A DNA stretch of 58,806 nt, filler included, from Gonapodya sp. JEL0774 (taxonomy: Eukaryota), in assembly GCA_027604505.1 (NCBI GenBank). It is 8 parts of 8 records of this genome, joined end to end, with 100 filler letters (N's around TTAATTAATTAA, not from the genome) between each part and the next. Parts side by side here need not be neighbours in the genome. Positions count along the whole stretch, not along the records: positions 29,511 to 36,770 come from JADIIX010000517.1; 7 more parts are not named here. One strand, written 5' to 3'. Shown one piece after another: positions 7,288 to 50,467 of the stretch. Position numbers and translations under genes: made by a program. Each line of letters begins with the position of its first letter. The stretch's first letter is position 1. The notes under the pieces are model-generated. The model searched no databases and had not been told where the DNA came from. It was given only the letters and a program-made list of their open reading frames with translations.

Positions 7288-7387
7288 NNNNNNNNNNNNN
7301 NNNNNNNNNNNNNNNNNNNNNNNNNNNNNNNTTAATTAATTAANNNNNNNNNNNNNNNNNNNNNNNNNNNNNNNNNNNNNNNNNNNN
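7288..7387. other. Artificial contig spacer (N-TTAATTAATTAA-N); repeated at 14674-14773, 22047-22146, 29411-29510, 36771-36870, 44128-44227, 51475-51574
   Basis: Identical 100-nt linkers with six-frame stops; intervening contigs decrease monotonically in length. Confidence 0.97.
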
Positions 7388-29510: not shown

Positions 29511-30218
29511 GTCTTGAGTGCGTTGGCCACCGCCCTGGCGCCGGCCTCGCCGATCTCGTTCCCTAGCAGAAGAGAGACGGAGTGGGTGCGTGACCAAATC
29601 CAAACATGCACCCGGGGCTAAAACTCAAAAATCAAAACTCACTACCGAGGTCAAGCGATGTCAAAGTCGAGTTGGTCTTGAGTGCGTCGGCCACCGCCCT
29701 GGCGCCGGCATCGCCAATCCCGTTATCTAGCAGAAGAGAGACGGAGTGGGTGCGTGACCAAATTCAAACATGCACCCGGCGCTAAAACTCAAAACTCAAA
29801 ACTCACCATGCAGGTCAAGCGATGTCAACGTCGTGTTGGTCTTGAGTGCGTCGGCCACCGCCCTGGCGCCGGCCTCGCCGATCTCGTTATCTAGCAGAAG
29901 AGAGACGGAGTGGGTGCGTGACCAAATTCAAACAAACACCCCGCGCTGAAACTCAAAACTCAAAACTCACGCCTGAGGTCAAGCGATGTCAACGTCGTGT
30001 TGGTCTTGAGTGCGTTGGCCACCGCCCTGGCGCCGGCCTCGCCGATCTCGTTCCCTAGCAGAAGAGAGACGGAGTGGGTACGTGACCAAATTCAAACATG
30101 CACCCGCGGCTAAAACTCAAAAATCAAAACTCACAATCGAGGTTAAGCAATGTCAACGTCGAGTTGGTCTTGAGTGCGTCGGCCACCGCCCTGGCGCCGG
30201 CCTCGCCGATACTGTTAG
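29511..30218 (-). repeat. 164-bp tandem units = 84-nt LRR exon + 80-nt near-identical intron (4 complete + 1 partial)
   Basis: Exons 30135-30218, 29971-30054, 29807-29890, 29643-29726, partial 29511-29562; intron gtgagttttga...ctctcttctgctag. Confidence 0.93.
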
Positions 30219-32596
30219 CTAGAAGACGTGCGCAGAGTGTGAAGTGAAGAGAGATGGACAATCCGAGAGTTCAAACAACAGTATGAGTATTGCATTTTGG
30301 AGGTGACGTGGGTCAATGGACAAGTTCTGAGATCAGCCGCAGCACCACGAAGGTGTTATGAAACAACTCACATCGCAAATCTAATTCTGTAGGATTTCCG
30401 TTGTAAAGTTGGAGAAGTGCATCTTGTACCTTCTTCCCAAGTTTCTTTTCGTCAGCGGTTAACTGCCTGGGGGTTCTCACAACACGAGCATTCTGTTTGG
30501 GTCCTGGAATCTGTCTTTTCTGCTCTGCTTCTTGGGCTTTGAGTAATCGACTCTCTTCATCGACCTTGAGACGCCTTGTTTCTTCCGCCTGCTTCTCGAG
30601 GACTGCCAGTCGCTCCCGCAATTCCGACTGTTCTGCTTCGAACTGCGCGCGAAGTCTTGCTTCGGTAGCCTTCTCAATGATTGCATGCTCTGCCTCAGCA
30701 AACATTGTGCGTTCTGTAGACGGTTTGGCCGATGGAGTTCTTGACGGAGATAATGCATACTGCGACTGAGATGGAGAGAGTGTGACTCCAGAGTCATGAC
30801 TACGTCCTTGTATCGACAAAAGGCGACTTGGTGGGGAGGGATTGTTCAAGTCGGGATATGCTCTCTTGAGTTCCGAAATTAAGGTAGCAAAAGTGGGTCG
30901 CTTGCCAAGCTGTGGGTCCCAGCAACGTCGAACAAGATCCTGTATTGGTTTGGGCATAGGAACAGTGGCGGCTAACTCGGCGTCATCGATTTCCTCGACG
31001 TCTCTGAGGTCCTCATAGGTTTCAATGTCTGGTCGCTCGCCCGACTTCATCACAGTTACGACAGCGTCATCGGCTACACCGGCGAACGGCATTTGAAGTG
31101 TGTACATCTCATACACAGTCATGGCAAATGCATACACGTCCAGTTTCTCAGTCAATGTAGGCTTTGTGGCAAAAAGCTCAGGGGCCATCCATCGTTTGGT
31201 ACCAACTCGGGCCAGCCCAGTGAGATTAGACACCTGTTTTGTGACAGCTGCGAAACCGAAATCGGTGACCAGAGCGTTCCCGAGATTGTCCACCAGCACA
31301 TTGGCGGCCTTAAGATCGCGGTGGAGGATACCTTTTCCATGGAGGTACTGCATTGCGGATGCAACGTCAAAGACGAGATGAACACGATTGATGTGCGGAT
31401 ATTTTTGGAGATACGAGAGGAGGTGACCATGCTGCATGTATGGTGACACCATGAACGGCTGGGTAGCAATGAGATTAGCTCCAAAGAGTTGCAGAATGTT
31501 TGGATGGCGCAGTTGTGACCAACGCTTGACTTCGTTGTAGAGAAGCTATGTACACATAATCCATGACCTGCTGTGTAACATCATATGCAATATGAATGAT
31601 CACTCACGTCCGTCAGCTTTTGGCTTGGGTTTCTCACAAGCAAACGCTTGAGAGCCACAGTACGGGTTCCACTCCACGTGGCCTTGAAGACTTCGCCAAA
31701 ACCACCAGAAGCAAATGAGTCTCCCTCGAGAACAATGTCGGATTCCGGGATATGCCAATCCTCCTCTGTAAGATCTTCTCCGGACAATCTAGAAAGGCTT
31801 GCACGGGTTTTTCTGAGAAGAATTTGTTCTCGTGGAGTAGCATCCCCTGTGGTGATAGCCGCTTGAATGGTTCGCAACACCTCCATTATTTGAGCGTTCC
31901 CAAGCTCCAGAGTCGCGAGTAATGTTGCGTCGTTTTTCTGCAGCTGTTCGAGCATATCTTGTGCTGCATTCTCTGCAATGTTTCGATCCGCGTTGTTTTC
32001 GGCGGCCCACCTATCAAGGTTCAACACCGCGGCAAGCTTAAGGGAGTCCGAAGCCATGTGACCAGGGATATTGAGAAAACACAACATACGAGTACCTACT
32101 TGAAAGTCCTTGACCATGGTTTGAAGTCTGAGATCAAACTCTTCGATTTCCTTCCGCGTCACACTGCTGTTCAGAATGCGGTACCATTTGGGTTTGCTTT
32201 TGACAGTCTCCAGAAAGTGAGCAACCTCTACCAGAAACCTTTGAACAAAGCCAGTAAGACACAAGAGTGCAGAGCCCTCCAGGAAGTTACCCACTTGGTA
32301 AAATCGACGGCATGTTTGCGGAGAGGTTCCCGCAAATCGGTGCTTCCGGGATCCATCCGGTGAGCGATAGCCTCCACGAGCAAGGCACATCGACTGGCAA
32401 GGCGCACTACGAGCTCTTTATTCTCTCGGAAGTCTTTTGCGACGGTGTAGACTGCGCGAAGACCTTGAGCGCAGGCTCCAAACACGGGGACATTGGTGAT
32501 AGTTCCGACGGCGCCCAGGACGGCAGCGACGCCATCAAGCAAGTTGCCGGCAAGGTGTGGATCAACTCCCTTGAAAGCACCTCCGTGCGCCTGCAT
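29511..32596 (-). CDS. Second MLKL-like NTD - TKL kinase - coiled coil - single-exon LRR array gene (3' end runs off contig)
   Basis: VPVFGACAQGLRAVYTVAKDFRENKELVVRLASRC (MLKL-NTD-like); GGFGEVF, VALK, HPNIL, HRDLKAAN, DFG, GTKRWMAPE, DVYAF; then LRR exons N(S/E/G)IG(E/D)AGARAVA(D/N)ALKTN(S/T)TLTxLxL. Confidence 0.88.
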
Positions 32597-32735
32597 GCTT
32601 TCGATTTCCGGGGAAACTCAGTGGGTGAGGGGGAAATCGGGACTGGTTCAGTCCACAGCTGTGGCCCAAGCAAAAACGAAACCCAATTGTCCAAAAGTGT
32701 AAGTCACACTCATATACCATGATTGAACGGCTATA

Positions 32736-33354
32736 CCATGATTGAACGGCCACCCCAAAACGCGAGTACTTTCATTTTCAAAATCACACTTTTCTTTTCA
32801 AAAGCACGTAATTTTGTAAGAAAAGTAAACTGTGGAAAACCAAATGTCAAAAGTACATAAAAATCGTTTTCTCTTCTTCAGGGTCCTGCACAACCTCGTC
32901 AATTTCACCATTGTCTCTTATCGTCTCCTTGCCAATGCCACGCTTCTTCCGATATCTTCGAATGCTTCGCTCGGAACAGCCTTGTACGTCTCCGAAATTT
33001 TCAATAAGAATCTGACTTATCTCCTCGTTGGAGTAGCGGGCGTGCACCAACACCGCGAGGTCCTCTTCCGACAACAGTTTCTCGACGTCCATGCGCCAAC
33101 AACGCTATCAACGCGTACCAGTGCGTCGTGGGGGACGGAGATCGGAGCTGTCCCCGCCGCTGAGCTGGCATCTCTCGGAGGCAGGGCCGTAAGGGGTTGT
33201 TGCACGAAATGTGTTTCCATTTGCACTTTTGCAAACATTCTATATTCACTTTTACATTTAACGCCTTTCCCTCAAAAAAAAGACATTTTGAAAATGAAAT
33301 GAACGAAATGGAACACGAAATAAAGTCAAAAGATGGGTGGCCGTTCGGTCATGG
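32736..33354. mobile_element. Small non-autonomous IR-bounded element containing a short HTH (Clr5-like) ORF at 32847-33092 (-)
   Basis: ccatgattgaacggccaccc (32736-55) vs gggtggccgttcggtcatgg (33335-54); inner IR tttcattttcaaaat/attttgaaaatgaaa; ORF YSNEEISQIL...CSERSIRRYRKKRGI. Confidence 0.55.
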
Positions 33355-33568
33355 GTTACACTCACCCATCAGTCATCGTTTTCATCCATCTGATTCACAA
33401 AGAATCTTTGAAGAGTTTCGTCCATCTGCACTCCAAAACATGGGATGGGGATGGGATGAGGATGAGGATGGGATGGGGATCGGTTGGACCTTCTGAAACT
33501 GTTGCAAAATGGGATGGAGGTTCTGAAACTTTCTTTCTATAAAAGTAGTCTATTTGATTGATTCGGTA

Positions 33569-36500
33569 ATGGCAGCCAAACATCATCTCACTCAATACTG
33601 GCAATTGGGATGGATAGCTTTCCCAATTTCGATTGCATGGAACTCAAATCGCCAGAAAAAGGAGTTGCAGGCTCCAAAGGGATGGCAGAATCTTGATGTC
33701 GAGGCAGCCAAGGCTCTGCCAACGAGAAATGCCATGGCCATCCAAACAGGCTCAGCTTCGGGCATTATCGTGCTCGACATTGATGACGTTGATGGTTGGC
33801 GACAATTTCTCCACGAAAACGACCAAGTCGAACCACATACAGTAACAGCACGTTCTCAAAGCGGCGGCATTCACTATTACTTCGAATGGAGCGAATCGGT
33901 CAACGACCTGAAATCCACATCTGCTCTTCTGGGTGGATGCGCAGATATCCGCAACAAGGGCGGCATGATTATCGCTCCACCGACATCGTTCGCCGTTCCG
34001 GGCGAAACCGAAGCACGGACTTACGCGTGGCTCGAGGGGAAATCACCATGGGATTGTGAGCTTGCTCAAATGCCAGACTGGCTCGCATTGGCTCTTCGTG
34101 AAAGAGGTGGCGGTAATTTGGGTGCTTCGAAGCGAGAGGCACGCATACAATCCACTGGCCCCGACTCCGTACCCACACCCTCCGTGGTAAAAGAATACAT
34201 TGCAGAATTCTACGCAATAATGCCAGACAACGTTGGCGATACCAAGTGGCTTGGCGATGGAGGAGGGTTTGCTGTGAGCACAAAAGTATATGATTGTTGC
34301 TTTAAAAAAGCGCCTCACAAAGGAAACAAGCAGTATCTTTTTGTGAGCGCGAATGGAGACATGTCACGTCGTTGTCACGACGGGGATTGTGTCGATAAAA
34401 AGTGGGGGAGTCGGAGAGTGCCTACAGACATAGTGAACGCTATCACGGCTCTTTTTGTCAGGATACCTGACGTCTCTCCTGAAATTGTACAAGGAGCTTG
34501 TCAGGAAGCTGTAACTCTTGTCAATGATGTGCATCCAGGCAATGCGAACGTTGCAATGGTTTATCGCCCAGACGCACACTCATTTCAAGGTGCTCTGGAC
34601 ACGTATTTTGGCCGGAAAGTGTGTCCATTTTGCGAACAGGGAAAATTAGTTGCTATTACAAGCAGGGAGGGTCTCGCGATTCGTTGCGATTCTGCTGTTT
34701 GTGGATACAGGTCACCAGCAAATGGAGCCATGCCCGTCGGCATGGATAAGTACAGCAGATTGGGAAACTTTTTCATGGTGGTCAACGTCAACGTCACAAA
34801 CAACAACGCAATAACTACCATCAACAATTTTGGCTCAGACGCTGACATACCGAGTTTGTTTCTCGGGGATGACGTCATGGTACGTCCTGAACCTGAACTA
34901 AATCGTCTCATACTTCACGCTCTTGGCGGCAGCGATAGTACGATGGCAAGACTCTTTGCTCGTCTTTATTCTGGGCGCGTGGCGTTTGCAGGTGGGAGGT
35001 GGTTCACCTTCTCCCACAATCGATGGAGAGAGGGTGACGAAAGTCAGGTGATGGCGATTATGGATGATCCAAATAATTCCGAGTTTGTTCGTGCTTTGTA
35101 TGACGCGCGCGCCGCATACACAAACGCAACGATGGACAAAGATGTCAAGGAGCAGAAACTGAAGCGCATCGCAGCAACGATAGTAAGCTCAGAGAGTCGC
35201 CATAAGCAAAGTGATATTGCCGCCATGTGCAAGAAGCCCACCCTTCTGGGTATCGCAGACGAGCTCTTTCTGGACAAACTAGACACAAATCACAAATTAC
35301 TCGGCTTTGACAACGGCGTTTACGATTTGAGCAGCCGTGTATTCCGCCCGGGCGAACCAGGAGACTACGTCTCGCTGAGCGTCGGTTACGATTTTGTACC
35401 GAACAAAATGTCAGATCCAGTTACAAGAGAAGAGGTCATGAGGTTTTTGGAAACTGTCTTCCCAGATGCAGGCGTAAGAAAATACACGCTTCTCTTTCTT
35501 GCATCGGCTCTCGAGGGCTACAACAAAGATCATAGATTTCATTTTGCATATGGCAAAAGTGGGCGTAACGGGAAAGGTATCTTGATGAAAATCATGGAGA
35601 TGGTCCTCGGAGGTTACATGACGATGGTCAACTCGACACTGATTTGCGGAAAATCCGCAGATGCAAATGCTGCCACACCACAACTCACCAAAATGGTCTG
35701 CAAGCGCTTCGTCTATATGTCCGAGGTGGAAGCCGGTGCAAGAATCAATGAAGAAGTATTCCAAAGACTTTGCGGTGGCGACAAACTTGTGATTCGGCCA
35801 TTGTTCAAAGAATCTCGTGAAGTTGACAACATGGCGAAAATCCTGATGTTGTGCAACGACATGCCTAAAATTGACGGAAGCAAGGATTCCAACAAACCCC
35901 GAATTGCCATCATTCCATTTGTTAGTAGATTTATTGACGGCCCGTGCGATCCTACAAAGCACGAATATCCCATTGACACTGAGCTCCATATGAAAGCGAG
36001 TCAATGGAAGCACGCAATGATGGGCATACTACTCGATTACCACAAAATCTACATTCGAGATGGTCTCAAAGATATACCTGAAGCCATGAAGCGCGCAAAA
36101 ACCCAATATCTCGGAGTAAACGATCAATCTCGTCTAGTAGACGAGTTCGTTCAGGAAAGCCTTGTCAAAGGTGGCCAAGGCATTGTCACGGAGGAATTGA
36201 TTTCTAGGTATCGATCGTGGGAAAAGGAAAACGGAGTAAAGCACCCCGACAGCGATAAAGAGAGAATCATGATGACGCATTTTGAATCAGGCTCAACTTA
36301 CAGACATTGAAAATGGCGCCAAGCGTGCCAATGTTCGCCGCTTCTACGATGCCGAGAAGAAGCGAAAGCATGGGTACGGAGGATGGAATTTTGTGACACA
36401 AGTACCGCGAGAGAAGGGGCTGAGCGAATGCGCACGCTCTGTGACATCTCTCATTGAGGAGAACATTGCACAGGCTGAGTGGATGGTAGACACACGGACG

Positions 36501-36770
36501 AATGTGCATCGTGCTGTAAAGGTGAGGGATTGGATGAACAATGTGACTGCGTCCATTTTGGCTGGTGTCGTGGCGGAAGCACAAGTGAAATATTATCTGT
36601 GCAATGGTGTTGAATCTGACTGGCGTCAACTCATACTAGACATGACGGAAGTGTCGGCCGTGATAAGCGCAGATATTCTGTCGTTTTTCACCGAGCACGA
36701 ATATTCCGTCGCGGCTGCGGTAAAACACATCAAGACACTGACCAGTGTAGAGTACTGGGAAGCACCGACG
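33569..36770 (+). CDS. Intronless Prim-Pol (bifunctional primase/polymerase) - Zn-binding - D5-like SF3 helicase; +1 frameshift near 36280; runs off contig
   Basis: NAMAIQTGSASGIIVLDID, SQSGGIHYYF, DIRNKGGMIIAPP; LLGFDNGVYDL; Walker A GKSGRNGKG; YMSE; LMLCNDMP; RIAIIPFVSRF. Confidence 0.9.
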
Positions 36771-36870
36771 NNNNNNNNNNNNNNNNNNNNNNNNNNNNNN
36801 NNNNNNNNNNNNNNTTAATTAATTAANNNNNNNNNNNNNNNNNNNNNNNNNNNNNNNNNNNNNNNNNNNN

Positions 36871-39397
36871 CCTTAAGTCAACGTCTGCTCTCCTTGGTGG
36901 TTGTGCAGACATCCGTAGCACTGGCGGCATGATCATTGCGCCACCGACTTCGTTCACCGTTCCGTGCGAAGCTGAACCACGTGTGTATACGTGGCTGGAG
37001 GGTAAGTCGCCATGGGATCATGAGCTTGCTGAAATGCCCGACTGGCTCTTACAGGCTCTTCGCGAGAGTGGAAGTGGCTCTGCTATCACTGTCAAACTAG
37101 GTCGTCCTGAGACGCACGTGCAACTCGACGGCCCTGACATTGCCACGACACCAGATTTGGTGAAAGATTACATCATGGAGAGTTTTGGGATTGTGCCAAC
37201 GTGTGTTGGTGGCACGAAATGGCTTGGTGACGGATTGGGCTATGCTGTGTCAACAAACGTTTTTGACTGCTGCTTCAAAAAAGCCCCACATAAAGGAAAC
37301 AAACAGTACATTTTTGTGAGCGCAGGTGGTGACATGACACGCCGCTGTCACGACGGAGATTGTCGGGAGAAGAAGTGGGGTCAACGCAAGGTCCCGCCGG
37401 AAATAGCTCAAGCTCTGCGGGAGTTGTTTCCATCGAAGCCAATAGTCGATCCGGAACTTATCGAATTGGCACGAAAAGAGGCGGCTGACCACGTAAACGA
37501 TACAGTCCCCGGAAATGACGCGATGGTCATGGCACTCAAAGCGGATTCGTCTGGATTTGAGGGATCCCTCAAAACCTTCTATAATCGGGATCTCTGTTTC
37601 ATGTGTGAGAAAGGGGTGTTGATGGCCACCACGAATAGTACCGGACTGGCTATAACATGTGATAATGCCTCATGTTCGTTCAAGATACCGGCAACAAGTG
37701 GCATTCCTGTCCCCGCAGACAAATATGCCAACTTGGGGAAGTTCTTCGTCATCATTCAGGAGCTGAATGTCACAAATATCACCATCAACAATAACATCAG
37801 TAACACAGATATTGGTCCGAACGAGTTTGTCAAGGACAATGTTCAATTTTTCGAGAGTGAAACATTGAACAGTACCTTCCTTCGCTCTCTAACGGGCGAC
37901 GGAGTGCTGATCGCAGATTTTATACAAGAGTATTACGCCGATGCAGATGTTGTCCACATAGACGACGCCGAGAGAAATAAAGCGTGGATGATTTTTACAG
38001 AGGGCAAGTGGAGAGCGATGAGTCTCACCAACATTGCAAGACGCTTACTGAGTACCAGTGATTTTCGTGGTCATTATAACCGTGCGTGGACTCACTACGC
38101 TGATCTCAATGAACCACGTAAGGCGAAGAGGATCAGCGACACGCTGACCGCTATTGGTGAGCCACATAAGCTCAAAGGCTATATGGGACTCACGGAGAGT
38201 TTTTTTGGTACGAAAGGTACTGAATTTCAGAGACTGAGAGATACAAAGCGCAATCTTTTGGGTTTTGAGAATGGTGTGCTTGATCTAGATGCATTTGTGG
38301 CGGGAAAAAACCCGTACTTCCGAGAGGCTGAGCCAGCCGACTACATTACCATGAGCACTGGCTACGCTTTTAGCTCCACAGAGGCACAGGACAAAGTGGT
38401 GAAAGGGCGCATTATGGAAGTACTCGCTCAGATTCAACCAGAAGCCGAGAACCGTGACTACCTTCTGAAGTTCCTCGCTTCAATGCTCTCTGGGGAGATC
38501 AAAGACGCCAAACTTATGTTCTTCGAAGGGAGCGGCGCCAACGGAAAGAGCATGCTCACAAAGGCCGTGGTGGCAGTTCTAGGGGACTACGGAGGAATGG
38601 CGAAAACGGAAATATTTACCCAGAAGGCAGGTGCTGACGCCCGAGCACCCAACTCTGCGATTGCCAAAATCGCAAGGGCGCGTGGAGTATTCTGTGAGGA
38701 AATTGAAGTTGGTGCGAAAATCAACACCAAGGTCATGAAGGAACTCACAGGAGCCAATAAAATCTCGAACCGCGCTGTGTATGCTCGTGAAGAGATGACA
38801 ATCGAACCGCAGTGGCATTTTGCAATCTGTGTCAACCACGCCCCGAGCTTTGCAGATGACAAATCCGATGGTGCTACACGCCGCATCGACATCCTTCCCT
38901 TCACTTCTTCATTTGTGATCAGTGGAGACATTGACCACGCAAATCACGTGTACAGAGCAGATCCTGACATGGCCGAAAAACTGGGAGGGGAATGGCGCAA
39001 TGCGTTTCTCGGAGTTCTGATGGACTACTGCAAGAGATTCCGGACAGAAGGTCTGGAAAGACCAATTGAAGTACTGGAAAGGCGCGAGGACTACATTGCA
39101 AGCAACAACCCCCTGTGGGACTTCCTGCAGGAGTCTCTTGTGAATAAACCTGACAGTGCAGTATCTCTGGATGAGATTCTCATACATTTTCGTCGGTGGT
39201 TTGTCACAAAGTACAGTGAAGCATCACTTCAGGCACAGTACCCAGAGTATGTTGAAGCTAAAACCCAGAGAAGAGGAGGTAAGCTCAAAGTGATTCGGGA
39301 GATCGGTGGCAAACTTCGACAGATGGGAAGAACAGTCAGTTTCGTCCGCGATAAGAACACATGTGTCATTGGGTACATGTGGAAAACGGACAACTAG
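36871..39397 (+). CDS. Second intronless Prim-Pol - D5-like primase-helicase (5' truncated by contig edge)
   Basis: DIRSTGGMIIAPP; LLGFENGVLDL; GSGANGKS; FCEE; KELTG; ICVNHAP; RRIDILPFTSSF; N-terminal half closely parallels the 33569 protein. Confidence 0.9.
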
Positions 39398-39620
39398 AAA
39401 TACAGCATCAGTATATAAACTACAATCAACTGCGTAGATTTCGCTACACTTTGCAGCCAGAATTATTCACACCACATTACATGCCCTATCGTCATATCAC
39501 TCTTCCCATCAAAAATGTGCCCACATACTGCGGGCCATGTAACATTCACTGGGTCAGCTTGGCCAAGCTGAAAATAAACAACATGTAAAAAACCCTGAAG
39601 AGATGTAGTGATGTAGATAT

Positions 39621-40213
39621 GTAGAGATGTAAAATGAAAAGTAAGAATGAAGGACGTAGCAAATATATGATTCAAAGCATGAAGTTCAAAAGACCTGCAT
39701 TCGGCTTTTCAAAGACAAAAAGACAATCTCACATTTTAAAATTATCATGTTTATCTTTCATCAATACATCTCAACAATCAGCACTCACACATAGAAAACA
39801 CTTGTAGAGACGTAGAGATGTAAAATGGAAAGTAAGAATGAAGGACGTAGCACAATATATGCTTCAAGCATGAAGTTCAAAAGACCTGCATTCGGCTATT
39901 CAAAAGACAACAGACAATCTCACATTTTAAAATTATCATGTTTATCTTTCATCAATACATCTCAACAATCAGCACGCACACATGGAAAACACTTGTAGAG
40001 ATGTAGAGATGTAGATATGTAGAGATGTAAAATGGAAAGTAAGAATGAAGGACGTAGCACAATATATGCTTCGAGCATGTTGTTCAAAAAGACCTGCATT
40101 CGGCTTTTCAAAGACAACAGACTATCTCACATTTCAAATTACCATGTTTGTCTTTCATCAATACATCTCAACAATCACCACTCACACAGGAAACACTTGT
40201 AGAGATGTAGAGA
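39621..40213 (+). repeat. Three tandem ~190-207-bp AT-rich repeats
   Basis: Units start ~39621, 39812, 40019 (gtagagatgtaaaatg(a/g)aaagtaagaatgaaggacgtagc...gacctgcattcggc...tcatcaatacatctcaacaatca). Confidence 0.9.
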
Positions 40214-40515
40214 TACAGAGGTGGAGAGTTTGGTGTTCGATCAGCAAGGGCTGCTGAAGGAGAGAGCACCCTGTTTGCACAGGAAAGATAGGAGTTATCG
40301 TGACTCGCAACAATGGGAAGAGTAGGACGTAGCTGTGATTATACAGTGTAAGGGCACCAGAGCGATGATTGACGCCACCTCAAATATGGTCTGCAGTTCC
40401 AAAAATATCTCGATATATCTCATGTTGATGTAATGCTTACTTTATAATAAACCAGACACGAGATATGGTGACTGCATGAAGGCAAAAATACAATTGACTC
40501 CGTTATACAGGCTTT

Positions 40516-40783
40516 GCAACCCCGCCTATTGCCTTGTTACAACTCCAATGTTGCTAGTTTCAACTCCGCCTGTTGCCTCTTACAACTCCAGTGTTGCGAA
40601 TTTCAACTCCCCCTATTGCCTTGTTACAACTCCAATGTGCTAAATTTAACTCCGCCTGTTGCCTCTTACAACTCCAGTGTTGCTGATTTCAACTCCGCAT
40701 TGTGCCCTTTACAACTCCAATGTTGCTAAATTTCAACTCCGCCTGTTGCCTCTTACAACTCCAGTGTTGCTAATTTCAACTCC
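40516..40783 (+). repeat. Iteron-like array of ~13 CAACTCC-core units at ~21-23-bp spacing (43/86-bp higher order)
   Basis: ttacaactcca(a/g)tgttgc alternating with tttcaactccgcctgttgcc; inverted GGAGTTG copies follow at ~40822-40927. Confidence 0.85.
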
Positions 40784-41579
40784 AGAGACTCTCTAAAGTG
40801 AATCATTGTACGCGTCTTTTGGGAGTTGAATGGAGTTGACAGGTTTCAATAAGTGGAGTTGAATCGACACTTGAAACGGAGTCGAACTTGAACTGCATAC
40901 ACTGTACACTATCTGTGGTTGAGTTGAAATAACTCCTTTGAGAAAATCTATTGGTCAAGTCCATCTCACCTCCTCTCTTCTTTTGAAGAAGAGAATCATA
41001 GATAATAAATTAAGAGAAAGGAGTTATCGTGACTCCATAAAGGGGGAATATCAGGCAAACTCAAGACAATATGACTCCATCGACTTGGGCTATCAGCTCC
41101 GCCGCATGCTTTTTACAACTCCATGAGTGCCAATCTCAACTCCATGTCGAAAAGAAGCAATATTCCCCTGAGAATCTCTCCATGAAATGATCAAGTCTAG
41201 TTTTCGACATCCAGCAAGCCCTGCCGTGCATATCAACAACCTGACACACCAACATTCATACCCAGAACAAACCAACACGCGCCAACGCCCCCACGTGATG
41301 CCCATCGACCCGCTCGAACTGCTCCAGCGGTATCTGCTCTTCATCGCCCGCCGTCAGCGTCGTCCGTACCGTCCCGCCGACCGCGTCTAAATGGACATCC
41401 AATGAAAGTCATCGAAGTTCGCGAACCAGTCCCGAAACCATCGGCAAACACCCACTCAATGTCATCTCTGCTTTGCGATGCTGCGAAAAACGTGGCGGAT
41501 AAGGGGTTTCGTCCATCGGAACCTTCGCGACCCACATTTCGAGTTGTGAAGGCCCTACTGCCACTTTCTCCCCCATCGC

Positions 41580-41655
41580 TATCCGCTCCCTATTGCTTTC
41601 GCTCATTTTGGGCATGTCATTATTGCAGCACATGAGCATTTTAGCAGTGATTCGA
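41580..41655 (-). pseudogene. Short relic of a D5 helicase (motif C region)
   Basis: TAKMLMCCNNDMPKMSESNRERIA vs MAKILMLCNDMPKIDGSKDSNKPRIA in the 33569 protein. Confidence 0.5.
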
Positions 41656-41665
41656 TTCATTCGAA

Positions 41666-42385
41666 TCATTTCAGCTTTCCAACTGGTCCGCAAGCAGGTG
41701 GTGCCTTTTCTTTTGTTTTTCTTTCACGTATCGATATCTCTTTGGCGAGTGTATTTGGAATGAACGCTGCCAACGTCTTGTCAATCTTCTGTACTTCGAG
41801 TGCCCTGTGAGCTGCCATTCGCGCCACCATTTCAAATCTCGACCCGAACCTACTGTCAATCGATTCCTTCTCTTTAGAAAACGGAAGTATACCTGTAACT
41901 TCAAGTTGTTGGCCAATCTTCACTCCGATTGGTTCCGGCCATGGTGATTCGTACATCACATTACAATGAAATGAAACTTTTGCATCAACACCAAATGAAG
42001 TGTTCACAATTCTCTCCACGATCCCAGATGGCTCCCACGCCATATCTACAATACTCTTGCTTACGCTTCCATCAGCCCAAACACGCTCAATCTCTGTTCC
42101 ATCGTAAATCAACACTGTGTTCTTATGCGCTGTTCGAAGATCATATTGCCATTCTGGCCATCGGTCCACATCGTTCATCACTCTCCACAAAACATTCACG
42201 TCAACACCAGCAAATACATACTCTTCATCTCGAACTGTTCGCTTTTCTTGTGCTGCCTTTTTCATTGCCTCTTTTTTCGTGTATTCCGAAAGCACCATCG
42301 CATTTTCATGTCGGACAAGCTGTGCTGAAACTGTTTTCCCCAATTTTTCGAGTCCGTGAAGAATGTAAAGAGCATTCACATTCAT
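41666..42385 (-). CDS. Intronless ORF with SRPBCC/polyketide cyclase-like domain
   Basis: 239-aa ORF; VDVNVLWRVMNDVDRWPEW matches the SRPBCC N-terminal signature. Confidence 0.55.
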   Translation of the reverse strand: MNVNALYILHGLEKLGKTVSAQLVRHENAMVLSEYTKKEAMKKAAQEKRTVRDEEYVFAGVDVNVLWRVMNDVDRWPEWQYDLRTAHKNTVLIYDGTEIERVWADGSVSKSIVDMAWEPSGIVERIVNTSFGVDAKVSFHCNVMYESPWPEPIGVKIGQQLEVTGILPFSKEKESIDSRFGSRFEMVARMAAHRALEVQKIDKTLAAFIPNTLAKEISIRERKTKEKAPPACGPVGKLK

Positions 42386-42916
42386 TGTTTGAACGTGAGA
42401 GAATTTGTTGTTCTGGTTCTTTGATTGTAAGAGAATTTGTTGTTCTGTTACACATATACAACAGAAAAAAAAAACGTTTCTTCACCACATAGAACAAACA
42501 AAGGGTAACCTTTCATCCAACCATATCGTCTGGTGGTTGGTGCACGACTTTGGTGTTGGTGTGCCCAGACTTGTACTGACACAAACTACTCGAGCATCTG
42601 CAAACACATGATCAATGCAATCTTTCGATCAATTCTTCAACGTGACAATGAATTATACGTACGTGACGGACATTATGTACTCTTTGTTTACATTGTATTA
42701 TGTCAAAAGTTATTTGTACAAACGTGAAGTTGAAATGCAAAGATTCCATGGGAGTTCCACCGTCTTCCCGCACCAAATGGAACACGAAGGAAACTTCAGC
42801 AGTGGTCATAAAGAACGATCAATGATGTGTCTAGGCGCGTTCTCATCCTCATCCCCATCCCGGATGAGATTTCGAAAAGTTTCATAATGTCGAATCCCAT
42901 TCTCATCCTCATCTTT

Positions 42917-44071
42917 TCATTTGGGTCCAGGATGTGTATTCACGATACAGCCGGATGTAGTTGATTGCTGCATACAAAGCATATGAGCGAGGTGTGCTCC
43001 CAAAGCGTCTGACGCGGAGTCACTAATCAAATACTGGCACGTTTGTAGTAGTGAGAGCAGAGCAGAAGGGTCTTCGCAGACGGGAAGATTGAAACGCCCC
43101 GTACACGCGTAATTCTCGAGTGCTCGAAGTTGTTGAATGGTGATATTTGGTGCTGGTACCTCGATATGTGTTTCTTCACTCGCGCTGCGAGAACAATCAT
43201 CAATCACATGCTTCCAGATTTCAAATGAGCCCGAAAAGAGTGCATTGCTCTCATCAAAATCCAGAAATCCGTCTTTCGCGAGAATGCGAACTTTCTTCCC
43301 GGCCCATCGTTGCCTCTTTGTCTCTCTGAGCTGTAGTCCGTTCTCATCGCAGGGGTTACCGACTCCACCCACTTCGATTGCTGGTATCTCAGTGTGAGTT
43401 TTATTTCGACCAATGAGTCCATACTTTCGACCGCATTCATCGCCAAAGCCGTTCCCGAGACTGGAATCGCGGGTGAGTGGGAGGGAGCAGAAAACACATT
43501 TGCCAGAAAGTTTTCCCAGATACGACCCCATGTCGGCCGGATTCCGATCCAATAAGGCGAAAAAATTGAGCAGATCTCGCGTGTCCTCATTCCCAGTCGC
43601 CGACCCGTCGACGCGAATGATTGCACTTTCCATCCCCGTCTCCAGTCGATCTCCAAGTGCTCTGTTTCCAGGCGACCTCGTGAACACCTTCACACTGTGT
43701 CCGTTGTACACTGCGCGCAAGCTCCGAACCACCACTGTTTCGAGCTTGGACACGCCGTCGACAATGACATTCACGGACACTTCAGTCTTCCATGGGACTG
43801 TGCTGTTCCAGCTGGGTAGACAAGATGCGTCGACGCGGATCGACATCGAATTACCGGTAATAGTTGGTGCTGTTCCGTTTGACCTGAACCTCTTGGCCGC
43901 TTCAACGAACAATGATATGATTCCGCTGTATGTGCCCGGAGGAACACTCCATGTTTGTTGAGCAAATCGATGCCATCTCTGTAAACTCCGAATCGACGTC
44001 ACAATTTTGAGCCCTTCGACCTGCTGTGTTTTGTTCAACGTGTTCCATACGTCGCGTTTTGAGGAGATCAT
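42917..44071 (-). CDS. Intronless ORF: DUF6011-like Cys motif plus C-terminal BTB/Skp1-like domain
   Basis: GKCVFCSLPLTRDSSLGNGFGDECGRKYG; KVRILAKDG...WKHVIDDC...IEVPAPNITIQQLRALENY...LLSLLQTCQYL. Confidence 0.6.
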   Translation of the reverse strand: MISSKRDVWNTLNKTQQVEGLKIVTSIRSLQRWHRFAQQTWSVPPGTYSGIISLFVEAAKRFRSNGTAPTITGNSMSIRVDASCLPSWNSTVPWKTEVSVNVIVDGVSKLETVVVRSLRAVYNGHSVKVFTRSPGNRALGDRLETGMESAIIRVDGSATGNEDTRDLLNFFALLDRNPADMGSYLGKLSGKCVFCSLPLTRDSSLGNGFGDECGRKYGLIGRNKTHTEIPAIEVGGVGNPCDENGLQLRETKRQRWAGKKVRILAKDGFLDFDESNALFSGSFEIWKHVIDDCSRSASEETHIEVPAPNITIQQLRALENYACTGRFNLPVCEDPSALLSLLQTCQYLISDSASDALGAHLAHMLCMQQSTTSGCIVNTHPGPK

Positions 44072-44659
44072 CTCGTCCAGAGTGAGTGGGAATTGGAAAA
44101 GTCTGTCGACGTGTCCCCCAACTCGTCNNNNNNNNNNNNNNNNNNNNNNNNNNNNNNNNNNNNNNNNNNNNTTAATTAATTAANNNNNNNNNNNNNNNNN
44201 NNNNNNNNNNNNNNNNNNNNNNNNNNNGAAGAGTTTGTTTATAGTGTCCAGCAAACCAGATTTGATGGTGTGGTGGGGGTGGTGGATCTGTATTTGTTGT
44301 GCCACACACTGAGTATGAGGACGTGGTCATGGTGTGAGTTGTGTGCTGTTGTAGAACAGGGAGGGTGGCATTTTTGTGTCAGAATACAGGTGCCCTCTTG
44401 TGTGTGCTACTTAGTATATTACATGCCAGTGCACTCATCTAGTATACACTTATAGTACAAACAACACCACACAACCTTACACATATCCAACATTTTGTTG
44501 GTATTATCCTGACATGCAAGTGTCAGAATATAGATGCCCTCTTGTGTGTGCAACTTAGTATATTACACTTCAGTGCACTCATCTATGTGCCTGTGGCTAA
44601 TCTAGTATATACATATAGTACATACAACACCACACCACCTCCCACAGATCCAAGAGCAA

Positions 44660-44935
44660 GGAAGCTGATGATTATGGTTTTGAGGACGTTGATGGACAGG
44701 CCCCACACAAGGCAGTATTCAAGCAGGAGGTCAAGGGCCACCTTGGAGTAGGGCTATGATTAGGGCAAGTTGGATGAGGTCAGCAGCAAGTCTGAGGACG
44801 TTGTCTTTAGAGGGCTTTGGTCATGAAGTGGGGTGTGTCTCTGGATATGAAGTTGTAGATGAGGGTAGGGAGTGGGTCGCCCTGGGTGACTCCCCATTCC
44901 TGTTTGATGATTTGGGTGTCTCTCCCCAATCACAC
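44660..44935 (-). mobile_element. Decayed non-LTR (LINE) reverse transcriptase fragment
   Basis: Minus strand reads GVTQGDPLPTLIYNF ... AADLIQL (degenerate YADD region) ... WGLSINVLKT, with frameshifts/stops. Confidence 0.7.
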
Positions 44936-45599
44936 TATGACAAATATTCAAAATATTCGTATTCAATTCTATATTCGACCAATGAAATACGGTTACAAAT
45001 ACTGTTTTAGGCATTTGAGAGGTCGAATACGAATACGAATGCGAATACAATTATTGAATGGGTTAGGGCTTGTTCGGCAACAGTTTTTGGGTCATAATCA
45101 ATTGGTGCGTATGCAAAAATCAATTTTTGATGCAGTCAGTTCTCTTGTGTACCACAGAATCAAAATTCAATTGATTTGCACCAGATAGCAGCGTTTTCCA
45201 TCCATATTTGCCATAGAATGGACAGACAAAACCCCATCATCATGGATGTGGATGCCCTTGTCATGTCCATTGTTGCCACGTCTGCTGCATTCCTTGGCCC
45301 ATGACAATATCAATGCTGCAAGGAGAAATGTAATGAGCTTTTGTGGAGTTGGGGGTGGTTTCGACGTCTGTATATATATTCTCAATCGCTCAGTCTCTGT
45401 GCACTACTGTGGTCACCAGTACTGCACGCTCACCCCACACTCCAAGTACTACTGCTCACTACAGAACTCCACAACCAGAAACGCTAGAGAGGTCGCTCAA
45501 CAACCAAAACGTATCTACTCTTAAAGGCGGTTCCAATGCGACTATTGGCGTCCTTTGATCACTGTTTGTAGTTGAGCTATTTGACATCCAAGCTCAACC

Positions 45600-46700
45600 C
45601 ATACTTCAATAAAATGTGGACGCAGGAGCCGTTGCAGGGGCATCCCGACATTGCCTTGGACAATTTACAAATGGACCATCGCATTTTCCTCATCCTGTGA
45701 GACAAATTCGGGAGCGGACGCTTCTACAGAACACCTTGGAATGCAGCATGACACGGCAACTCGCGATGGCTATGTTTTTTTGGGGACATGGCATTGGTAT
45801 GAGGGCTGTATGTTTGCGGTTCCAACACTTGTTATCAACGGTTTCTGCATACATCAGGGCAGGAATTACAGCAATATGTGCACTTGCACCAGACTACATC
45901 ATTCACCCAACAGCCCCAAGTGCTTGTCCATGTCGGATCATGAACAATGGATGATTTAATCCATATTTTTGGGACTGTGTGGGAGCTTTGGACAGCACAC
46001 ACATTTGCGCTTTCATAAAGGCAGGGGACACACAGGTTCCATATAGGAATCGTAAGGGAACATTGACACATAAAACTCTTGCTGCTTGTAACATGGACAG
46101 GTGTTATGTATTCGTTTATCCAGGGTACAAAGGTTGTGCCCAAAACGGAACAGTGCTAGACAATGCACTTGAGCGTGGGGGACTGATAGTTCCCACTGGA
46201 TGATTCTAGCTTGTGGATGCAGGATACTCAAATACAATGGAGTTCCAGGGGCTCTACAAGAATGGTGCTCTGTACCACCTCAAGGAATGGCATAATCAGG
46301 GTCAACGGTATGTTACGCATGGACGCTTTTACTAGTGGTGCCAAGGCAACTCTCATGATGCTACAACAGGCCTGAAAATTATCACGAGCTATACAACCTC
46401 TGTCACTCATTGGGCCCCAATGTAATTGAACGGGTGATTGGCATATCCAAGAACCGCACACAGGCTCTGGACAAAGGAACCAGGTTTCACCTATTTCAAG
46501 ATCAAGTTTGAGCTGTTGTTGCATGCTTTGTCATCCATAACTTCATCCACCATCGTAGCAATGGTGCAGATGACAACATTGCTCGTGAATTCAACTGACT
46601 GAATGCCCTGCCCCACCAACCAGAAGTGAATGCGGAGATTCTGTGAGATCTCTGGTGCAGGTATGGAGGGATTGCACGGCAAAGAAGATGTGAGCAGTTA
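45600..46700 (+). pseudogene. Harbinger DDE_Tnp_4 transposase pseudogene
   Basis: FWDCVGALDSTHI, YRNRKG, LAACN, VYPGYKG, L*LVDAGY, YHLKEW, ELYNL...NVIERVIG; internal stops (~45952, 46201). Confidence 0.85.
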
Positions 46701-46842
46701 AATTGTGATCCAGGCAGAGCGTGGGTTCAGGAACGTGGCCATTATTGACTTGTATCTCTTTGTTACTTGCACTGTATTTCAAGTTACCTAATGACATGTG
46801 CTTAAACATCAATATGTCCTTGAAACATGTTACTACTGTGTC

Positions 46843-47880
46843 TCAATAACTCATTGTGAACCTCCTGGATGTGCCGGGCCATCCAAACTCGCTGACCTGT
46901 GGCACTCTCCATTCCAATAAAAATACCACAAACGGACTATCGTCTGCAAACCAAACTGCAAGGTCTGCACGCTCTGCATCTGTGAACCCATCCTCCGCCG
47001 CAATGCGCAGGGCCCTCTCAACAGGATTCATTGCCATTTCCGCCCGTCCCATTAACCCCTGCTCCAATGCATCTGCCAGCTTTTGAAATCCAGCAGTTTC
47101 CACTGGTGCAGATGGATCCGTGGTCAAAGACGTTCTTGGGTGTTTCCTTGTGGTTGGAGCTAGGGTGTGGGAGTGTCCAGTTGTGGCAATACAAGTGATT
47201 GCTGAGCTGGATTGGTGTCAGGTGGATGTGTGGCTAATATTCTCAGAGTCACAGCATACTGGGGTGATAGCACGCGTTGCTGCCACCGCAGGAGGTGCCC
47301 CACCAGTGTCACTACCACCTAACCAATTTGCATGCATATTGAAAGACACCAAACCAGACAGCAAGTTGCAGAAACTCACCTTCATCATCATGCAGATCAT
47401 ATTCATCTTTGTTGTCAGTATCCTTGTCTGTTTCCTGAGCGTAGTTCTGGCAGTACTCAACCAAATCCTTGTTCTCCTTCAGATCTGTCCCATTCTGAGC
47501 ATGTGCCCCAGTCGCTGCAAATGACCCAAGGAGTCTGTCCCCTTCTCTGAATAGAGGCCACCCATTCTCATGGAATACTTGGGTGTTTTTGTTGTGCTGC
47601 AGTGGGGGTGACGGTGCCAGTGAATAGAATCACCACAACCGTGAACTGCAAACTCACCTCAGCAAACTCTTGCCATGGTTCTGGTGTCATTGTCACTCTT
47701 GGTGGTGGTCCTGGGCTGTATCCGGCACTGCTTTGCTCCAGTGTTGGACATATACGATGTTGTTCTGTGTGTACTGTACTATATGGAGAATAAAAGAGTG
47801 GAAGTGATGGTAGTGTGGCAAAGTCAGCGGAATGCTTGACAGGCACACAAGGGACGAGAAAAGGCAGCACGAGCTCCATC
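46843..47880 (-). pseudogene. Probable Harbinger accessory (Myb/SANT-like) ORF, decayed
   Basis: Convergent with the transposase; acidic linker and C-terminal LADALEQGL...NPVERALRIAAEDGF helix typical of ORF2. Confidence 0.45.
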
Positions 47881-48952
47881 ACTCCGATTGGGCGGAGAGC
47901 AACTTGTCTGGACTGGGCAGCTTGGAATCTTCAATGATGGGCCGGAGTGAGAATCAAATAAGACAGGATTGAACTTCCCCGTCCCACTCTTCAGTTCTGA
48001 AGACAGTTTGAGTACAGAATGGTCGCTGAGGTTTTGATTACAGAAGATATCGACCAACATAGCCACTAGATATTATGTAAATACATGTTAATCGAACTTA
48101 TTGGATCAACATATGTCTATACTCGTGTTGACAGCAAGCACTTCCTCTCTGCAAATGTCGGGGAGTGACCAAGAAGGGACCGGTAAGACATGGAAGCCAC
48201 TAGAGCGCAAGACTTTATGAAATACAGTTTGATTTTGCGAGCGGTGGAATTGTACGAGGGAAGTCTGATAATGTTATCGCATGTGTGCGTTTGCATATGG
48301 CACATGACCCATCACATTCCGGAATTGTCCTTAAAATATGTCCTTGAATGTGATGGGTTGCTCAAGCTTGCAAAGGCACAGAATGTGATGGATCCACTGG
48401 ATTGTATGAACAAGAAAACCAGACATGGGCTGGCCGTGGCGGGGGGGGGGGNNNNNNNNNNNNNNNNNNNNNNNNNNNNNNNNNNNNNNNNNNNNNNNNN
48501 NNNNNNNNNNNNNNNNNNNNNNNNNNNNNNNNNNNNNNNNNNNNNNNNNNNNNNNNNNNNNNNNNNNNNNNNNNNNNNNNNNNNNNACTTGATTGTATGA
48601 ACAAGAAAACCAGAAATTTGATACCCATCCCCCCCCCCAGTCCCTTCACGTAACCAATTCCCCACTCCACCTTCCTTTCACATGTGCCATCCACCGCAAC
48701 CAAATCACACATTAGAAAAGTCGAACTATCTCCTACATGCCACCAATTTGGAACCAAGTGAATACTGGTCATGACATCTGAAAGTGGAGCCGCAGGGGAT
48801 TTGTCTGCAAGCGACGATGGCGATTGGAACGTTGGAACAGGTACGTCATCTTGTTCTTGTATAGCTTCCACTCGCTCCTATACTGATCCTGCGCTGACCC
48901 TGTGGTTCTGTCACACGTGAATTGTGTTGCTGACATCAACCACCTCGAATGA

Positions 48953-50424: not shown

Positions 50425-50467
50425 TGAAAACGAAATCTATTTTGTTAATACAAAACTATATTGACAA

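What the first reader, a model, noticed from the sequence alone, without database searches (positions are those of the whole stretch)
33569..36770. Virus-like intronless Prim-Pol/D5 primase-helicase in a fungal contig
Seen: an intronless ORF of more than 900 aa in an intron-dense genome. It has a Prim-Pol domain, Cys/His clusters (CCFKKAPH..RRCHDGDC; CPFC..CDSAVC), an Asn-rich linker (NVTNNNAITTINN) and an SF3 helicase. Established: primase-D5 fusions are replication proteins of NCLDVs, virophages/Polinton-like viruses, phages and plasmids, not of fungal chromosomes. Inference: an endogenous virus or a self-replicating element family.
Basis: partly seen in the sequence, partly recalled or inferred. 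Interest (0 to 1): 0.7.

Follow-up and report, generated by a model that had tools for sequence, protein, structure and literature searches.

The report
Viral replicase-nuclease jumping gene in fungus
A virus-type DNA-copying gene (primase-polymerase plus helicase, with the start of a predicted DNA-cutting tail) sits beside an ordinary intron-containing gene of what is likely an aquatic fungus, and ten related proteins with swapped parts are on record for one Gonapodya isolate, which suggests a jumping element that would copy itself with a single protein.

Summary
The ORF is real: 33569-36310, 913 aa. It has a pRN1-type Prim-Pol, a herpes-UL52-type zinc finger, a C4 ribbon and a D5/SF3 helicase. 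A frameshift near 36280 cuts it from a tail (36276-36770) that in full-length paralogues is a predicted RecB/Cas4-type nuclease. The window is a string of separate length-sorted contigs. The finding's 7,260-bp contig also carries an intron-bearing kinase-LRR gene, so a phage or bacterial contaminant is unlikely. Ten paralogues (33-75% identical where alignable) are named for Gonapodya sp. JEL0774, two decayed ones lie on large G. prolifera scaffolds, and another copy opens the next contig. Copies have swapped modules. Their helicases form a clade with unnamed environmental and Quaeritorhiza proteins (97/90), with none of 16 giant-virus-MAG or 7 phage rows inside. No capsid, packaging ATPase, PolB or integrase was found on either contig, but both are cut. 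Best reading (0.5): a dispersed, virus-derived self-copying element built on one primase-helicase-nuclease protein. Main rival: the replication end of a Polinton-like provirus (0.22). A table in a 2017 paper appears to list a D5 gene for G. prolifera. I did not find the nuclease fusion or the mosaic family in print.

The parts
33569..36310 (+). Primase-helicase ORF, 913 aa, intronless, ends early at a frameshift (copy a)
33596..34081 (+). Prim-Pol domain (pRN1 ORF904 type); catalytic-type residues D70, D72, H102, D126 present
   Evidence: Pfam PF09250; residues; model of paralogue P0014 (pLDDT 86) matches pRN1 ORF904, Z 14.3, rmsd 3.2, 170 aligned
34295..34390 (+). CHC2 zinc finger of the herpes UL52 type (C243, H250, C269, C274)
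   Evidence: nearly invariant columns; weak Herpes_UL52 hits in relatives P0058, P0160, L171, L172; P0014 residues 199-289 align to HHV1 helicase-primase chain B 925-1043, Z 4.5, rmsd 3.5, 91 aligned
34622..34702 (+). C4 zinc ribbon (CPFC...CDSAVC), followed by the Asn-rich linker
   Evidence: C352 and C373 nearly invariant; the same module is present in NCLDV-like D5 of L161-L171 and L181
34946..36310 (+). D5_N domain, SF3 ATPase (Walker A ...GRNGKG 665-670 with G in place of the usual S/T; Walker B SE 718-719; motif C N763; R778) and start of the winged helix
   Evidence: best solved relatives ASFV C962R and poxvirus D5/E5
36276..36770 (+). Frameshifted continuation: end of the winged helix and N-terminal part of a RecB/Cas4-type PD-(D/E)XK nuclease domain; cut by the contig end before the catalytic motif
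   Evidence: 81/113 identical to P0040 and 75/113 to P0003; about 10 bases missing against P0040 near 36270-36290; domain identity from paralogues
32736..33354 (.). About 620-bp unit closed by inverted repeats (32736-32793 against 33276-33354), with a short HTH-like frame 33104-32850 (-); likely a separate non-autonomous DNA transposon between the host gene and the primase gene
   Evidence: inverted arms 20 nt at 90% and 24 nt at 83%; local score 52 against a maximum of 37 in 300 shuffles; no informative family hit
29511..32617 (-). Host-type protein kinase gene with spliceosomal introns and a 164-bp exon-intron LRR array; on the same contig as the primase gene
   Evidence: PK_Tyr_Ser-Thr E 5.5e-40; GTGAGT...TAG intron at about 31608-31546; LRR array shared with the contig at 14774-22046
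36771..36870 (.). Artificial spacer between separate contigs (44 N + TTAATTAATTAA + 44 N)
36871..39397 (+). Second family member (copy b) on a separate contig, cut at its 5' end, no nuclease tail; 41% identical to copy a, with a mosaic pattern

Best explanation
This is likely one broken copy of a dispersed, virus-derived mobile element of Gonapodya-type zoosporic fungi, whose single large gene joins a primase-polymerase, two zinc modules, a D5/SF3 helicase and a predicted RecB-type nuclease, and which would copy itself without capsid or PolB genes. Inferred mechanism: the helicase hexamer loads at an origin in the element's short non-coding part and unwinds it; the Prim-Pol with its UL52-type zinc finger primes and extends new strands; the nuclease tail cuts or resects DNA so that the copy enters the chromosome by recombination, often next to or into a sister copy, which would explain tandem copies and swapped modules. 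Shown: domain order, motifs, linkage to a host gene, multiple paralogues, mosaicism, a separate clade. Predicted: the nuclease fold. Inferred and untested: autonomy, origin, integration route, lack of a capsid.
For: Ten named paralogues on nine contigs of Gonapodya sp. JEL0774, copy b in the window, and two decayed copies on 357-kb and 183-kb G. prolifera scaffolds. Modules are swapped. Copy b against copy a: 81/68/43/27/35/21% over Prim-Pol, CHC2, C4, D5_N, SF3, winged helix; P0002: 74/67/44/73/88%. P0163 shares its N-terminus (178/289) and nuclease (121/187) with P0003 but carries two other helicases (102/309 and 29/91). Codon-position differences of 42/36/96 in 183 codons between copies a and b point to purifying selection. 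Nuclease tail in five paralogues plus the window: atlas first hit PDDEXK_1 at 0.90, and the ten best family hits share its family or clan; model residues 434-594 align to AdnA (Z 7.8, rmsd 6.6, 149), AddAB (7.8, 3.6, 119), RecB (7.0, 4.5, 147), RecE, Dna2 and Cas4. Flanks of nuclease-type copies: copy a has a host gene 0.95 kb to its left, and P0005 (5' cut, nuclease complete) shares a 3,812-bp contig with P0014 (3' cut) under consecutive locus tags, which leaves at most 746 bp and implies a head-to-tail pair (inference from tags and lengths). Clade of 23 rows (97/90) with 0 of 16 GVMAG and 0 of 7 phage rows. CpG o/e is 1.05 in copy a against 0.43-0.55 in the decayed transposons of 44228-51474 (one control contig).
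Against: No complete element was seen: no target-site duplication or terminal repeat could be assigned to it, and copy a is cut on the right and copy b on the left. The nuclease is absent from copy b, P0027, P0029 and all environmental relatives fetched, so it is not required family-wide and could be a passenger like the GIY-YIG/HNH tails of Tlr1 helicases (PMC11161782). The nuclease model is weak (mean pLDDT 52, six sequences) and its Z values are under 8. RecB-type nucleases are not known integrases (own knowledge). Walker A ends in GKG rather than GKS/T, although most of the family shares this. Paralogues are 33-75% identical, with no near-identical pair seen, though clustered databases would hide such pairs. 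P0160 and P0161 lie on 22.9-kb and 17.7-kb contigs, the size of Polinton-like viruses.
Confidence: 0.5

Rival explanations
1. The gene is the replication end module of endogenous Polinton-like viruses. Capsid, ATPase and integrase genes would lie beyond the contig break at 36770, and the copies are independent provirus insertions and their relics.
For: PLVs encode AEP-S3H fusions and swap replication modules (PMC4642659, PMC11161782, PMC12220804), and primase-helicases sit next to the inverted repeats in end modules (PMC11296320). Copy a starts 215 bp from an inverted-repeat arm. Two relatives lie on 17.7-kb and 22.9-kb contigs. Five fungal capsid-gene contigs carry polinton-like integrases (PMC13533422).
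Against: 4.7 kb downstream of copy b holds tandem repeats and two ORFs with no capsid, ATPase or integrase hit. P0005 appears to be followed directly by another primase gene. No member of the clade was found in IMG/VR: one family motif gave 0 matches, and another gave 20 matches of which 1 was a relative, NCLDV-like and outside the clade. The inverted repeats at 32736-33354 close on each other.
Confidence: 0.22
2. The copies are relics of one or more giant-virus (Mycodnaviridae or other NCLDV) insertions. An accessory primase-helicase was scattered and shuffled passively by host recombination and is not mobile on its own.
For: G. prolifera carries NCLDV gene islands (PMC5294986), and giant-virus capsid genes occur in two Monoblepharidomycota genomes (PMC13533422). 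The CHC2+C4+Asn-linker+D5 layout is shared with D5 of NCLDV-like contigs L161-L173 and L181. The best predicted-structure match of the N-terminal half is a Bodo saltans virus D5 helicase-primase (E 2e-19).
Against: No other NCLDV gene was found on either contig, and the left neighbour is a host gene. There are ten or more divergent copies, whereas each Allomyces virus bin has its own D5. The clade excludes all 16 GVMAG rows and the 17 zinc-finger NCLDV-like rows, and all 60 GVMAG rows of the 315-row FastTree. Mycodnaviridae D5 sequences were not in these trees.
Confidence: 0.13
3. The primase-helicase is cargo inside an ordinary cut-and-paste transposon with terminal inverted repeats (about 6-7 kb), which moves it with a transposase encoded beyond the break.
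For: An inverted-repeat unit with an HTH-like fragment abuts the gene. 11 of 18 non-Gonapodya clade members lie on contigs of 5.9-7.3 kb.
Against: No transposase was found on either contig. The inverted repeats enclose only 620 bp and exclude the gene. The apparent P0005-P0014 pair leaves no room for a transposase between copies.
Confidence: 0.1
4. A phage, bacterial or free-virus contaminant, or a chimeric join.
For: The gene is intronless in an intron-rich genome, the assembly is fragmented, and read coverage could not be examined.
Against: It shares a contig with an intron-bearing kinase-LRR gene, with no gap between them. GC 0.48 and GC3 0.49 lie within the range of host-type frames. Best phage match is 24.7% over half the protein among 604 records; three prokaryote-genome loci at 23-25%. 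Relatives lie on large scaffolds of a second Gonapodya species.
Confidence: 0.03

Closest known systems
AEP-S3H primase-helicases of Polinton-like viruses (PMC4642659, PMC11161782, PMC12220804)
   Same: One polypeptide joins a primase-polymerase to an SF3 helicase; many endogenous copies; replication modules are swapped.
   Different: No capsid, packaging ATPase, rve or tyrosine integrase seen on the two contigs (both cut). The C-terminal tail is a predicted RecB-type nuclease. The primase is of the pRN1 Prim-Pol type with a UL52-type finger.
Mobile D5-like helicases of entomopoxvirus and PLV ends, linked to T5orf172/GIY-YIG nucleases (Barth et al. 2024, PMC11296320)
   Same: Accessory, repeated D5-like helicases with signs of recombination and a partner nuclease. 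That paper notes distant homologues in chytrids and speculates that a non-HUH nuclease fused to the helicase could drive mobility.
   Different: There the nuclease is a separate GIY-YIG gene in a virus genome; here it is a fused PD-(D/E)XK domain in fungal nuclear DNA. Its supplement has 0 hits for Gonapodya or for five accessions of this family.
NCLDV D5 (vaccinia D5, ASFV C962R, Bodo saltans virus D5-family protein; Mycodnaviridae D5)
   Same: D5_N + SF3 + winged helix, with best solved matches C962R and D5/E5. CHC2+C4+Asn-linker layout as in L161-L173 and L181.
   Different: Prim-Pol (PF09250) in place of the viral AEP; many copies; its own clade apart from the sampled GVMAG D5s; no neighbouring core genes.
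Sulfolobus plasmid pRN1 ORF904 and phage NrS-1 / P4-type primase-helicases
   Same: The Prim-Pol fold (Z 14.3) is fused to an SF3 helicase as a single-protein replicase.
   Different: The helicase groups with eukaryotic-virus proteins, not phage (100/100). Zinc modules and nuclease tail are added. Eukaryotic host.
Helitrons, casposons and transpovirons (self-copying elements without capsids)
   Same: Works like them in logic: replication enzyme plus a DNA-cutting domain in a small mobile unit.
   Different: No HUH Rep/Pif1 (Helitron), no PolB/Cas1 (casposon) and no pPolB-SF1 helicase (transpoviron) in this protein. The defining features of Helitrons and casposons are partly recalled.

Membership tests
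Prim-Pol (pRN1 ORF904-type AEP) | PF09250 domain with DxD, H and D catalytic residues | tested here: met
   fold match Z 14.3, rmsd 3.2, 170 aligned (paralogue P0014)
D5-like SF3 helicase | D5_N plus Walker A, Walker B, motif C and arginine finger | tested here: met
   Walker A ends GKG instead of GKS/T, as in most of the family
RecB/Cas4-type PD-(D/E)XK nuclease | G-x-x-D ... E-x-K ... Q-x-x-x-Y motif on the restriction-endonuclease fold | tested here: inconclusive
   Motif and fold present in paralogues P0003, P0005 and P0163 (model pLDDT 52, Z 5.3-7.8). The window copy is frameshifted and cut before the motif. No Pfam hit.
Giant endogenous virus (NCLDV, Mycodnaviridae) | Gene-dense region with other core genes (MCP, PolB, A32 ATPase, VLTF3) | tested here: not met
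   None on 29511-36770 or 36871-44127; host gene 0.95 kb to the left. Both contigs are only 7.3 kb.
Giant endogenous virus (NCLDV, Mycodnaviridae) | D5 nested among NCLDV core D5 genes | tested here: inconclusive
   Clade of 23 (97/90) holds 0 of 16 GVMAG rows, but the backbone is unresolved and Mycodnaviridae D5s were not available
Polinton-like virus | PgVV-type major and minor capsid proteins and packaging ATPase | tested here: inconclusive
Polinton-like virus | Terminal inverted repeats and an rve or tyrosine integrase | tested here: inconclusive
   The only inverted repeats (32736-33354) close on each other; the 85-aa HTH-like frame has no informative family hit
Transpoviron | pPolB-derived protein with SF1 (Tlr1-like) helicase (PMC11161782) | tested here: not met
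   The helicase is SF3/D5 and the polymerase domain is Prim-Pol
Helitron | HUH Rep domain and Pif1 helicase | tested here: not met
   No such Pfam hit in the window ORF or in P0002-P0005 and P0163
Transposable element (any class) | Defined ends, target-site duplication or empty site, near-identical dispersed copies | not testable with these tools
Phage P4-type / plasmid primase (contaminant) | Groups with phage primases in prokaryotic gene context | tested here: not met

The most novel reading that the evidence does not exclude
A new class of eukaryotic self-synthesizing transposon made of one gene (Prim-Pol, zinc modules, D5 helicase, RecB-type nuclease), which replicates itself and inserts by nuclease-driven recombination. 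It would be the integrated branch of an undescribed clade of small capsid-less replicons of about 6-7 kb (11 of 18 non-Gonapodya members lie on contigs of 5.9-7.3 kb, against 2 of 17 other D5 hits; the size window was chosen after the fact).
Probability: 0.25. Interest if true: 0.85.

Novelty: new variant of a known kind. Interest (0 to 1): 0.6.

Why it matters
Known self-copying eukaryotic elements rely on PolB (polintons), an HUH Rep with Pif1 (Helitrons) or a capsid stage (PLVs). A unit that primes, unwinds, copies and cuts with one protein would be a further minimal design. It would give a concrete case of the fused helicase-nuclease mobile module that PMC11296320 only speculated about. 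It would also caution against reading every fungal D5 gene as the relic of a giant virus. The family is testable: a full-length paralogue (P0003) is annotated and the host genus is in culture. If it proves to be a PLV end module, it would still extend PLVs to Monoblepharidomycota, which the searches here did not find reported.

Tried and rejected
The sequencing-run search listed no run (none was listed, which is no evidence), so coverage, the host junction and the frameshift were not checked against reads. Adjacency of copies a and b was rejected as real linkage because the spacers are uniform and the contigs are sorted by length; neither contig has terminal overlaps or terminal inverted repeats. 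The JGI metagenome scan gave 13 loci at 23-28%; those examined were NCLDV-like and outside the clade. The nuclease-domain search among shorter proteins returned 1 of 150 candidates, itself a Gonapodya paralogue; this word-based search misses distant relatives. The ORF at 42917-44127 has no relative in IMG/VR and only a weak BTB lead. No Rfam match in 29511-44127. A programmed frameshift at 36280 was considered and is disfavoured, because about 10 bases are missing against P0040. A 55-nt GT-AG stretch (36236-36290) could in principle be spliced in frame, but it encodes conserved residues and is untested. A GGATGAG...TGAAACT motif is shared between 33454-33517 and 42855-42915 (score 50 against a shuffle maximum of 34), but it is low in complexity and was not used. 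Earlier scan notes on this genome or sequence: none. Supplements not seen: 6 of 10 files of PMC13533422 were unreadable, and the figures of PMC5294986 are not held, so whether either paper shows this very family is open.
Full report
Layout. The window is eight separate contigs, 7287 down to 7232 bases, joined by identical 100-base spacers. The finding lies on the contig 29511-36770; the protein collection holds the window's protein on a 7,260-bp contig. Neighbours across spacers are not real neighbours. No whole genome is held. The window's own source was not established; all close named relatives are from Gonapodya.

The gene. ORF 33569-36310 encodes 913 aa without an intron. It holds a Prim-Pol domain (aa 10-171) with D70, D72, H102 and D126; a C243-H250-C269-C274 zinc finger; a C4 ribbon; the Asn-rich linker; D5_N; and an SF3 ATPase. 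A model of the N-terminal half of paralogue P0014 (17 sequences, pLDDT 86) matches pRN1 ORF904 (Z 14.3, rmsd 3.2, 170 aligned). Its finger region aligns to the HHV1 helicase-primase (Z 4.5, rmsd 3.5, 91 aligned), in line with weak Herpes_UL52 hits in relatives. That this type of finger supports de novo priming in human PrimPol is recalled, not tested. The helicase's best solved relatives are ASFV C962R and poxvirus D5/E5.

Full-length paralogues run on for about 230 aa (P0003, 1141 aa). In the window this part is in another frame, 36276-36770, 75/113 identical to P0003 and 81/113 to P0040. About ten bases are missing at the switch, and the contig ends before the catalytic motif. In P0003, P0005 and P0163 the domain reads GR(V/A)DF...YI(L/V)ETKF...H..Q..(L/M)Y. 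The atlas gives PDDEXK_1 first (0.90, 133 shared features: a lead). A weak model of P0005 (pLDDT 52) aligns residues 434-594 to AdnA, AddAB, RecB, ACE1, RecE, Dna2 and Cas4 (Z 7.8 to 5.3). Motif, atlas and fold agree on a RecB/Cas4-type nuclease; activity is untested. The domain was found in 5 of 173 fetched proteins, all Gonapodya, plus the window, and in none of 196 loci. A search among shorter proteins gave 1 hit of 150 candidates, again Gonapodya.

Endogenous, not a contaminant. The same contig carries a kinase gene with a GT-AG intron and a 164-bp LRR exon-intron array, which is also found on another contig of the window. About 620 bp closed by inverted repeats lies between the two genes. 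GC and GC3 match host frames. Phage matches reach 24.7% over half the protein (604 records), and three prokaryote loci reach 23-25%. Decayed relatives sit on 357-kb and 183-kb G. prolifera scaffolds. Reads could not be examined.

A multi-copy mosaic family. Ten annotated proteins on nine contigs of Gonapodya sp. JEL0774 belong to the family; databases clustered at 90% and 50% may hide more. Copy b opens the next contig (36871-39397, 41% identical). Identity to copy a changes sharply by module: copy b 81, 68, 43, 27, 35, 21%; P0002 74, 67, 44, 73, 88%. P0163 has two zinc fingers and two different helicases between a P0003-like Prim-Pol and a P0003-like nuclease, and P0029 has the second helicase type without the nuclease (456/565 identical to that part of P0163). 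Third codon positions differ most between copies a and b (42/36/96 of 183). P0005 and P0014 share a 3,812-bp contig under consecutive tags, one cut at its start and one at its end, leaving at most 746 bp. I infer a head-to-tail pair; the DNA was not seen.

Relatives. HMMER over 1.84 billion representatives found 36,730 hits at E 0.001. After Gonapodya come unnamed proteins that match along most of the length at 32-40%. In a 72-row IQ-TREE of the helicase core (72 chosen from 316 cores), 7 Gonapodya, 14 environmental and 2 Quaeritorhiza rows form a clade (97/90). It holds 0 of 16 GVMAG, 0 of 17 zinc-finger NCLDV-like and 0 of 7 phage rows, and all non-phage rows stand apart from phages (100/100). 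The environmental group was picked by similarity, the backbone is unresolved, and Mycodnaviridae and PLV sequences were absent. In the 315-row FastTree copy b and two paralogues fell outside the main clade on long branches. Within the clade the primase varies: Prim-Pol with CHC2+C4, C962R-type AEP with CHC2+C4, or Prim-Pol with PriCT-2. 11 of 18 non-Gonapodya members lie on contigs of 5.9-7.3 kb, against 2 of 17 other D5 hits (Fisher p 0.005 for that after-the-fact window, 0.01-0.09 for three others). Two lie on 17.7 and 22.9 kb. No member of the clade was found in IMG/VR or JGI contigs.

Mechanism. Best reading (0.5): a single-gene, capsid-less, self-copying element in which the helicase unwinds from an origin, the Prim-Pol primes and copies, and the nuclease makes ends for insertion by recombination, often at sister copies. 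The window copy is likely dead for the nuclease. Against this reading: no ends were seen, many members lack the nuclease, and RecB-type enzymes are not known integrases. Rivals: PLV end module (0.22), scattered giant-virus relic (0.13), cargo of a TIR transposon (0.10), contaminant (0.03).

Literature seen. PMC5294986 (passages, section 3.3, and the 1,677 characters of supplement held): NCLDV gene islands in G. prolifera; its Table 1, as flattened text, appears to list DNAP and D5; accessions not seen. PMC13533422 (one results section, passages, 4 of 10 supplements readable): Mycodnaviridae; no occurrence of 'Gonapodya' in the main text. PMC11296320 (abstract, passages, first part of section 9, supplement searches): mobile D5-like helicases with GIY-YIG partners. 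PMC4642659, PMC11161782, PMC12220804, PMC5871332 (passages). Nine searches listed no paper whose title, abstract or read passages describe a Prim-Pol-D5-RecB fusion or this family; subscription papers are not covered.

Verdict. Observation confirmed, interpretation partly supported. A D5 gene in Gonapodya is probably not new; the mosaic multi-copy family, the nuclease fusion and the separate clade appear to be. New variant of a known kind, interest 0.6.

Noticed in passing
window, spacers at 7288, 14674, 22047, 29411, 36771, 44128, 51475: The window is a concatenation of length-sorted contigs with 100-base spacers; other findings in this window that cross a spacer are artefacts. Two of the 8 contigs carry this gene family, which hints at more copies than are annotated.
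   Followed up: yes
window 39612-40214 and 40517-40783: Tandem arrays of 191 bp (3.1 copies) and 43 bp (6.2 copies) downstream of copy b, with an inverted copy of the 43-bp motif at 40831-40863; candidate origin or element end.
   Followed up: no
window 42917-44127 (-) and 41666-42481 (-): Two long open frames on copy b's contig: 402 aa with a phage-type DUF6011 zinc motif (E 2.5e-5) and a weak BTB lead (atlas 0.80), and 271 aa with no family hit.
   Followed up: partly
window 41580-41648 (-): A 70-bp relic resembling helicase motif C of the same family (14/18 identical to P0005, E 0.007), on the strand opposite copy b.
   Followed up: partly
window 32736-33354: Small inverted-repeat element with a 19-bp duplication at its left end (32713-32750) and an 85-aa HTH-like frame that resembles, from memory, the N-terminus of integrase-core transposases; no database support.
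   Followed up: partly
window 44228-51474: CpG-depleted contig (o/e 0.43-0.55) with what look by eye like a decayed Harbinger-type transposase (about 45600-46600) and a tyrosine-recombinase fragment (50468-50911, HSFRRGGA motif); no Pfam or NCBIfam hit at the thresholds used.
   Followed up: partly
P0163 (Gonapodya sp. JEL0774, HDU93_005764): 1,848-aa protein with Prim-Pol, two CHC2 fingers, two unrelated SF3 helicases and the nuclease; likely a recombinant of tandem copies.
   Followed up: partly
P0035, P0046, P0173 (Quaeritorhiza haematococci): Three clade members on contigs of 6,691, 7,029 and 7,234 bp; the two scanned carry PriCT-2. Candidates for unit-length elements.
   Followed up: partly
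P0136, P0015, P0160-P0162 (unnamed records): The same pairing of one Prim-Pol/CHC2 front end with two helicase types recurs outside the named Gonapodya set (P0136 front 187/292 identical to P0160; its helicase 218/522 identical to P0029).
   Followed up: partly
window 16520-18936 and 29511-30226: LRR genes built of near-identical exon-intron repeats (periods about 190 and 164 bp), apparently an expanded host kinase/LRR family.
   Followed up: no
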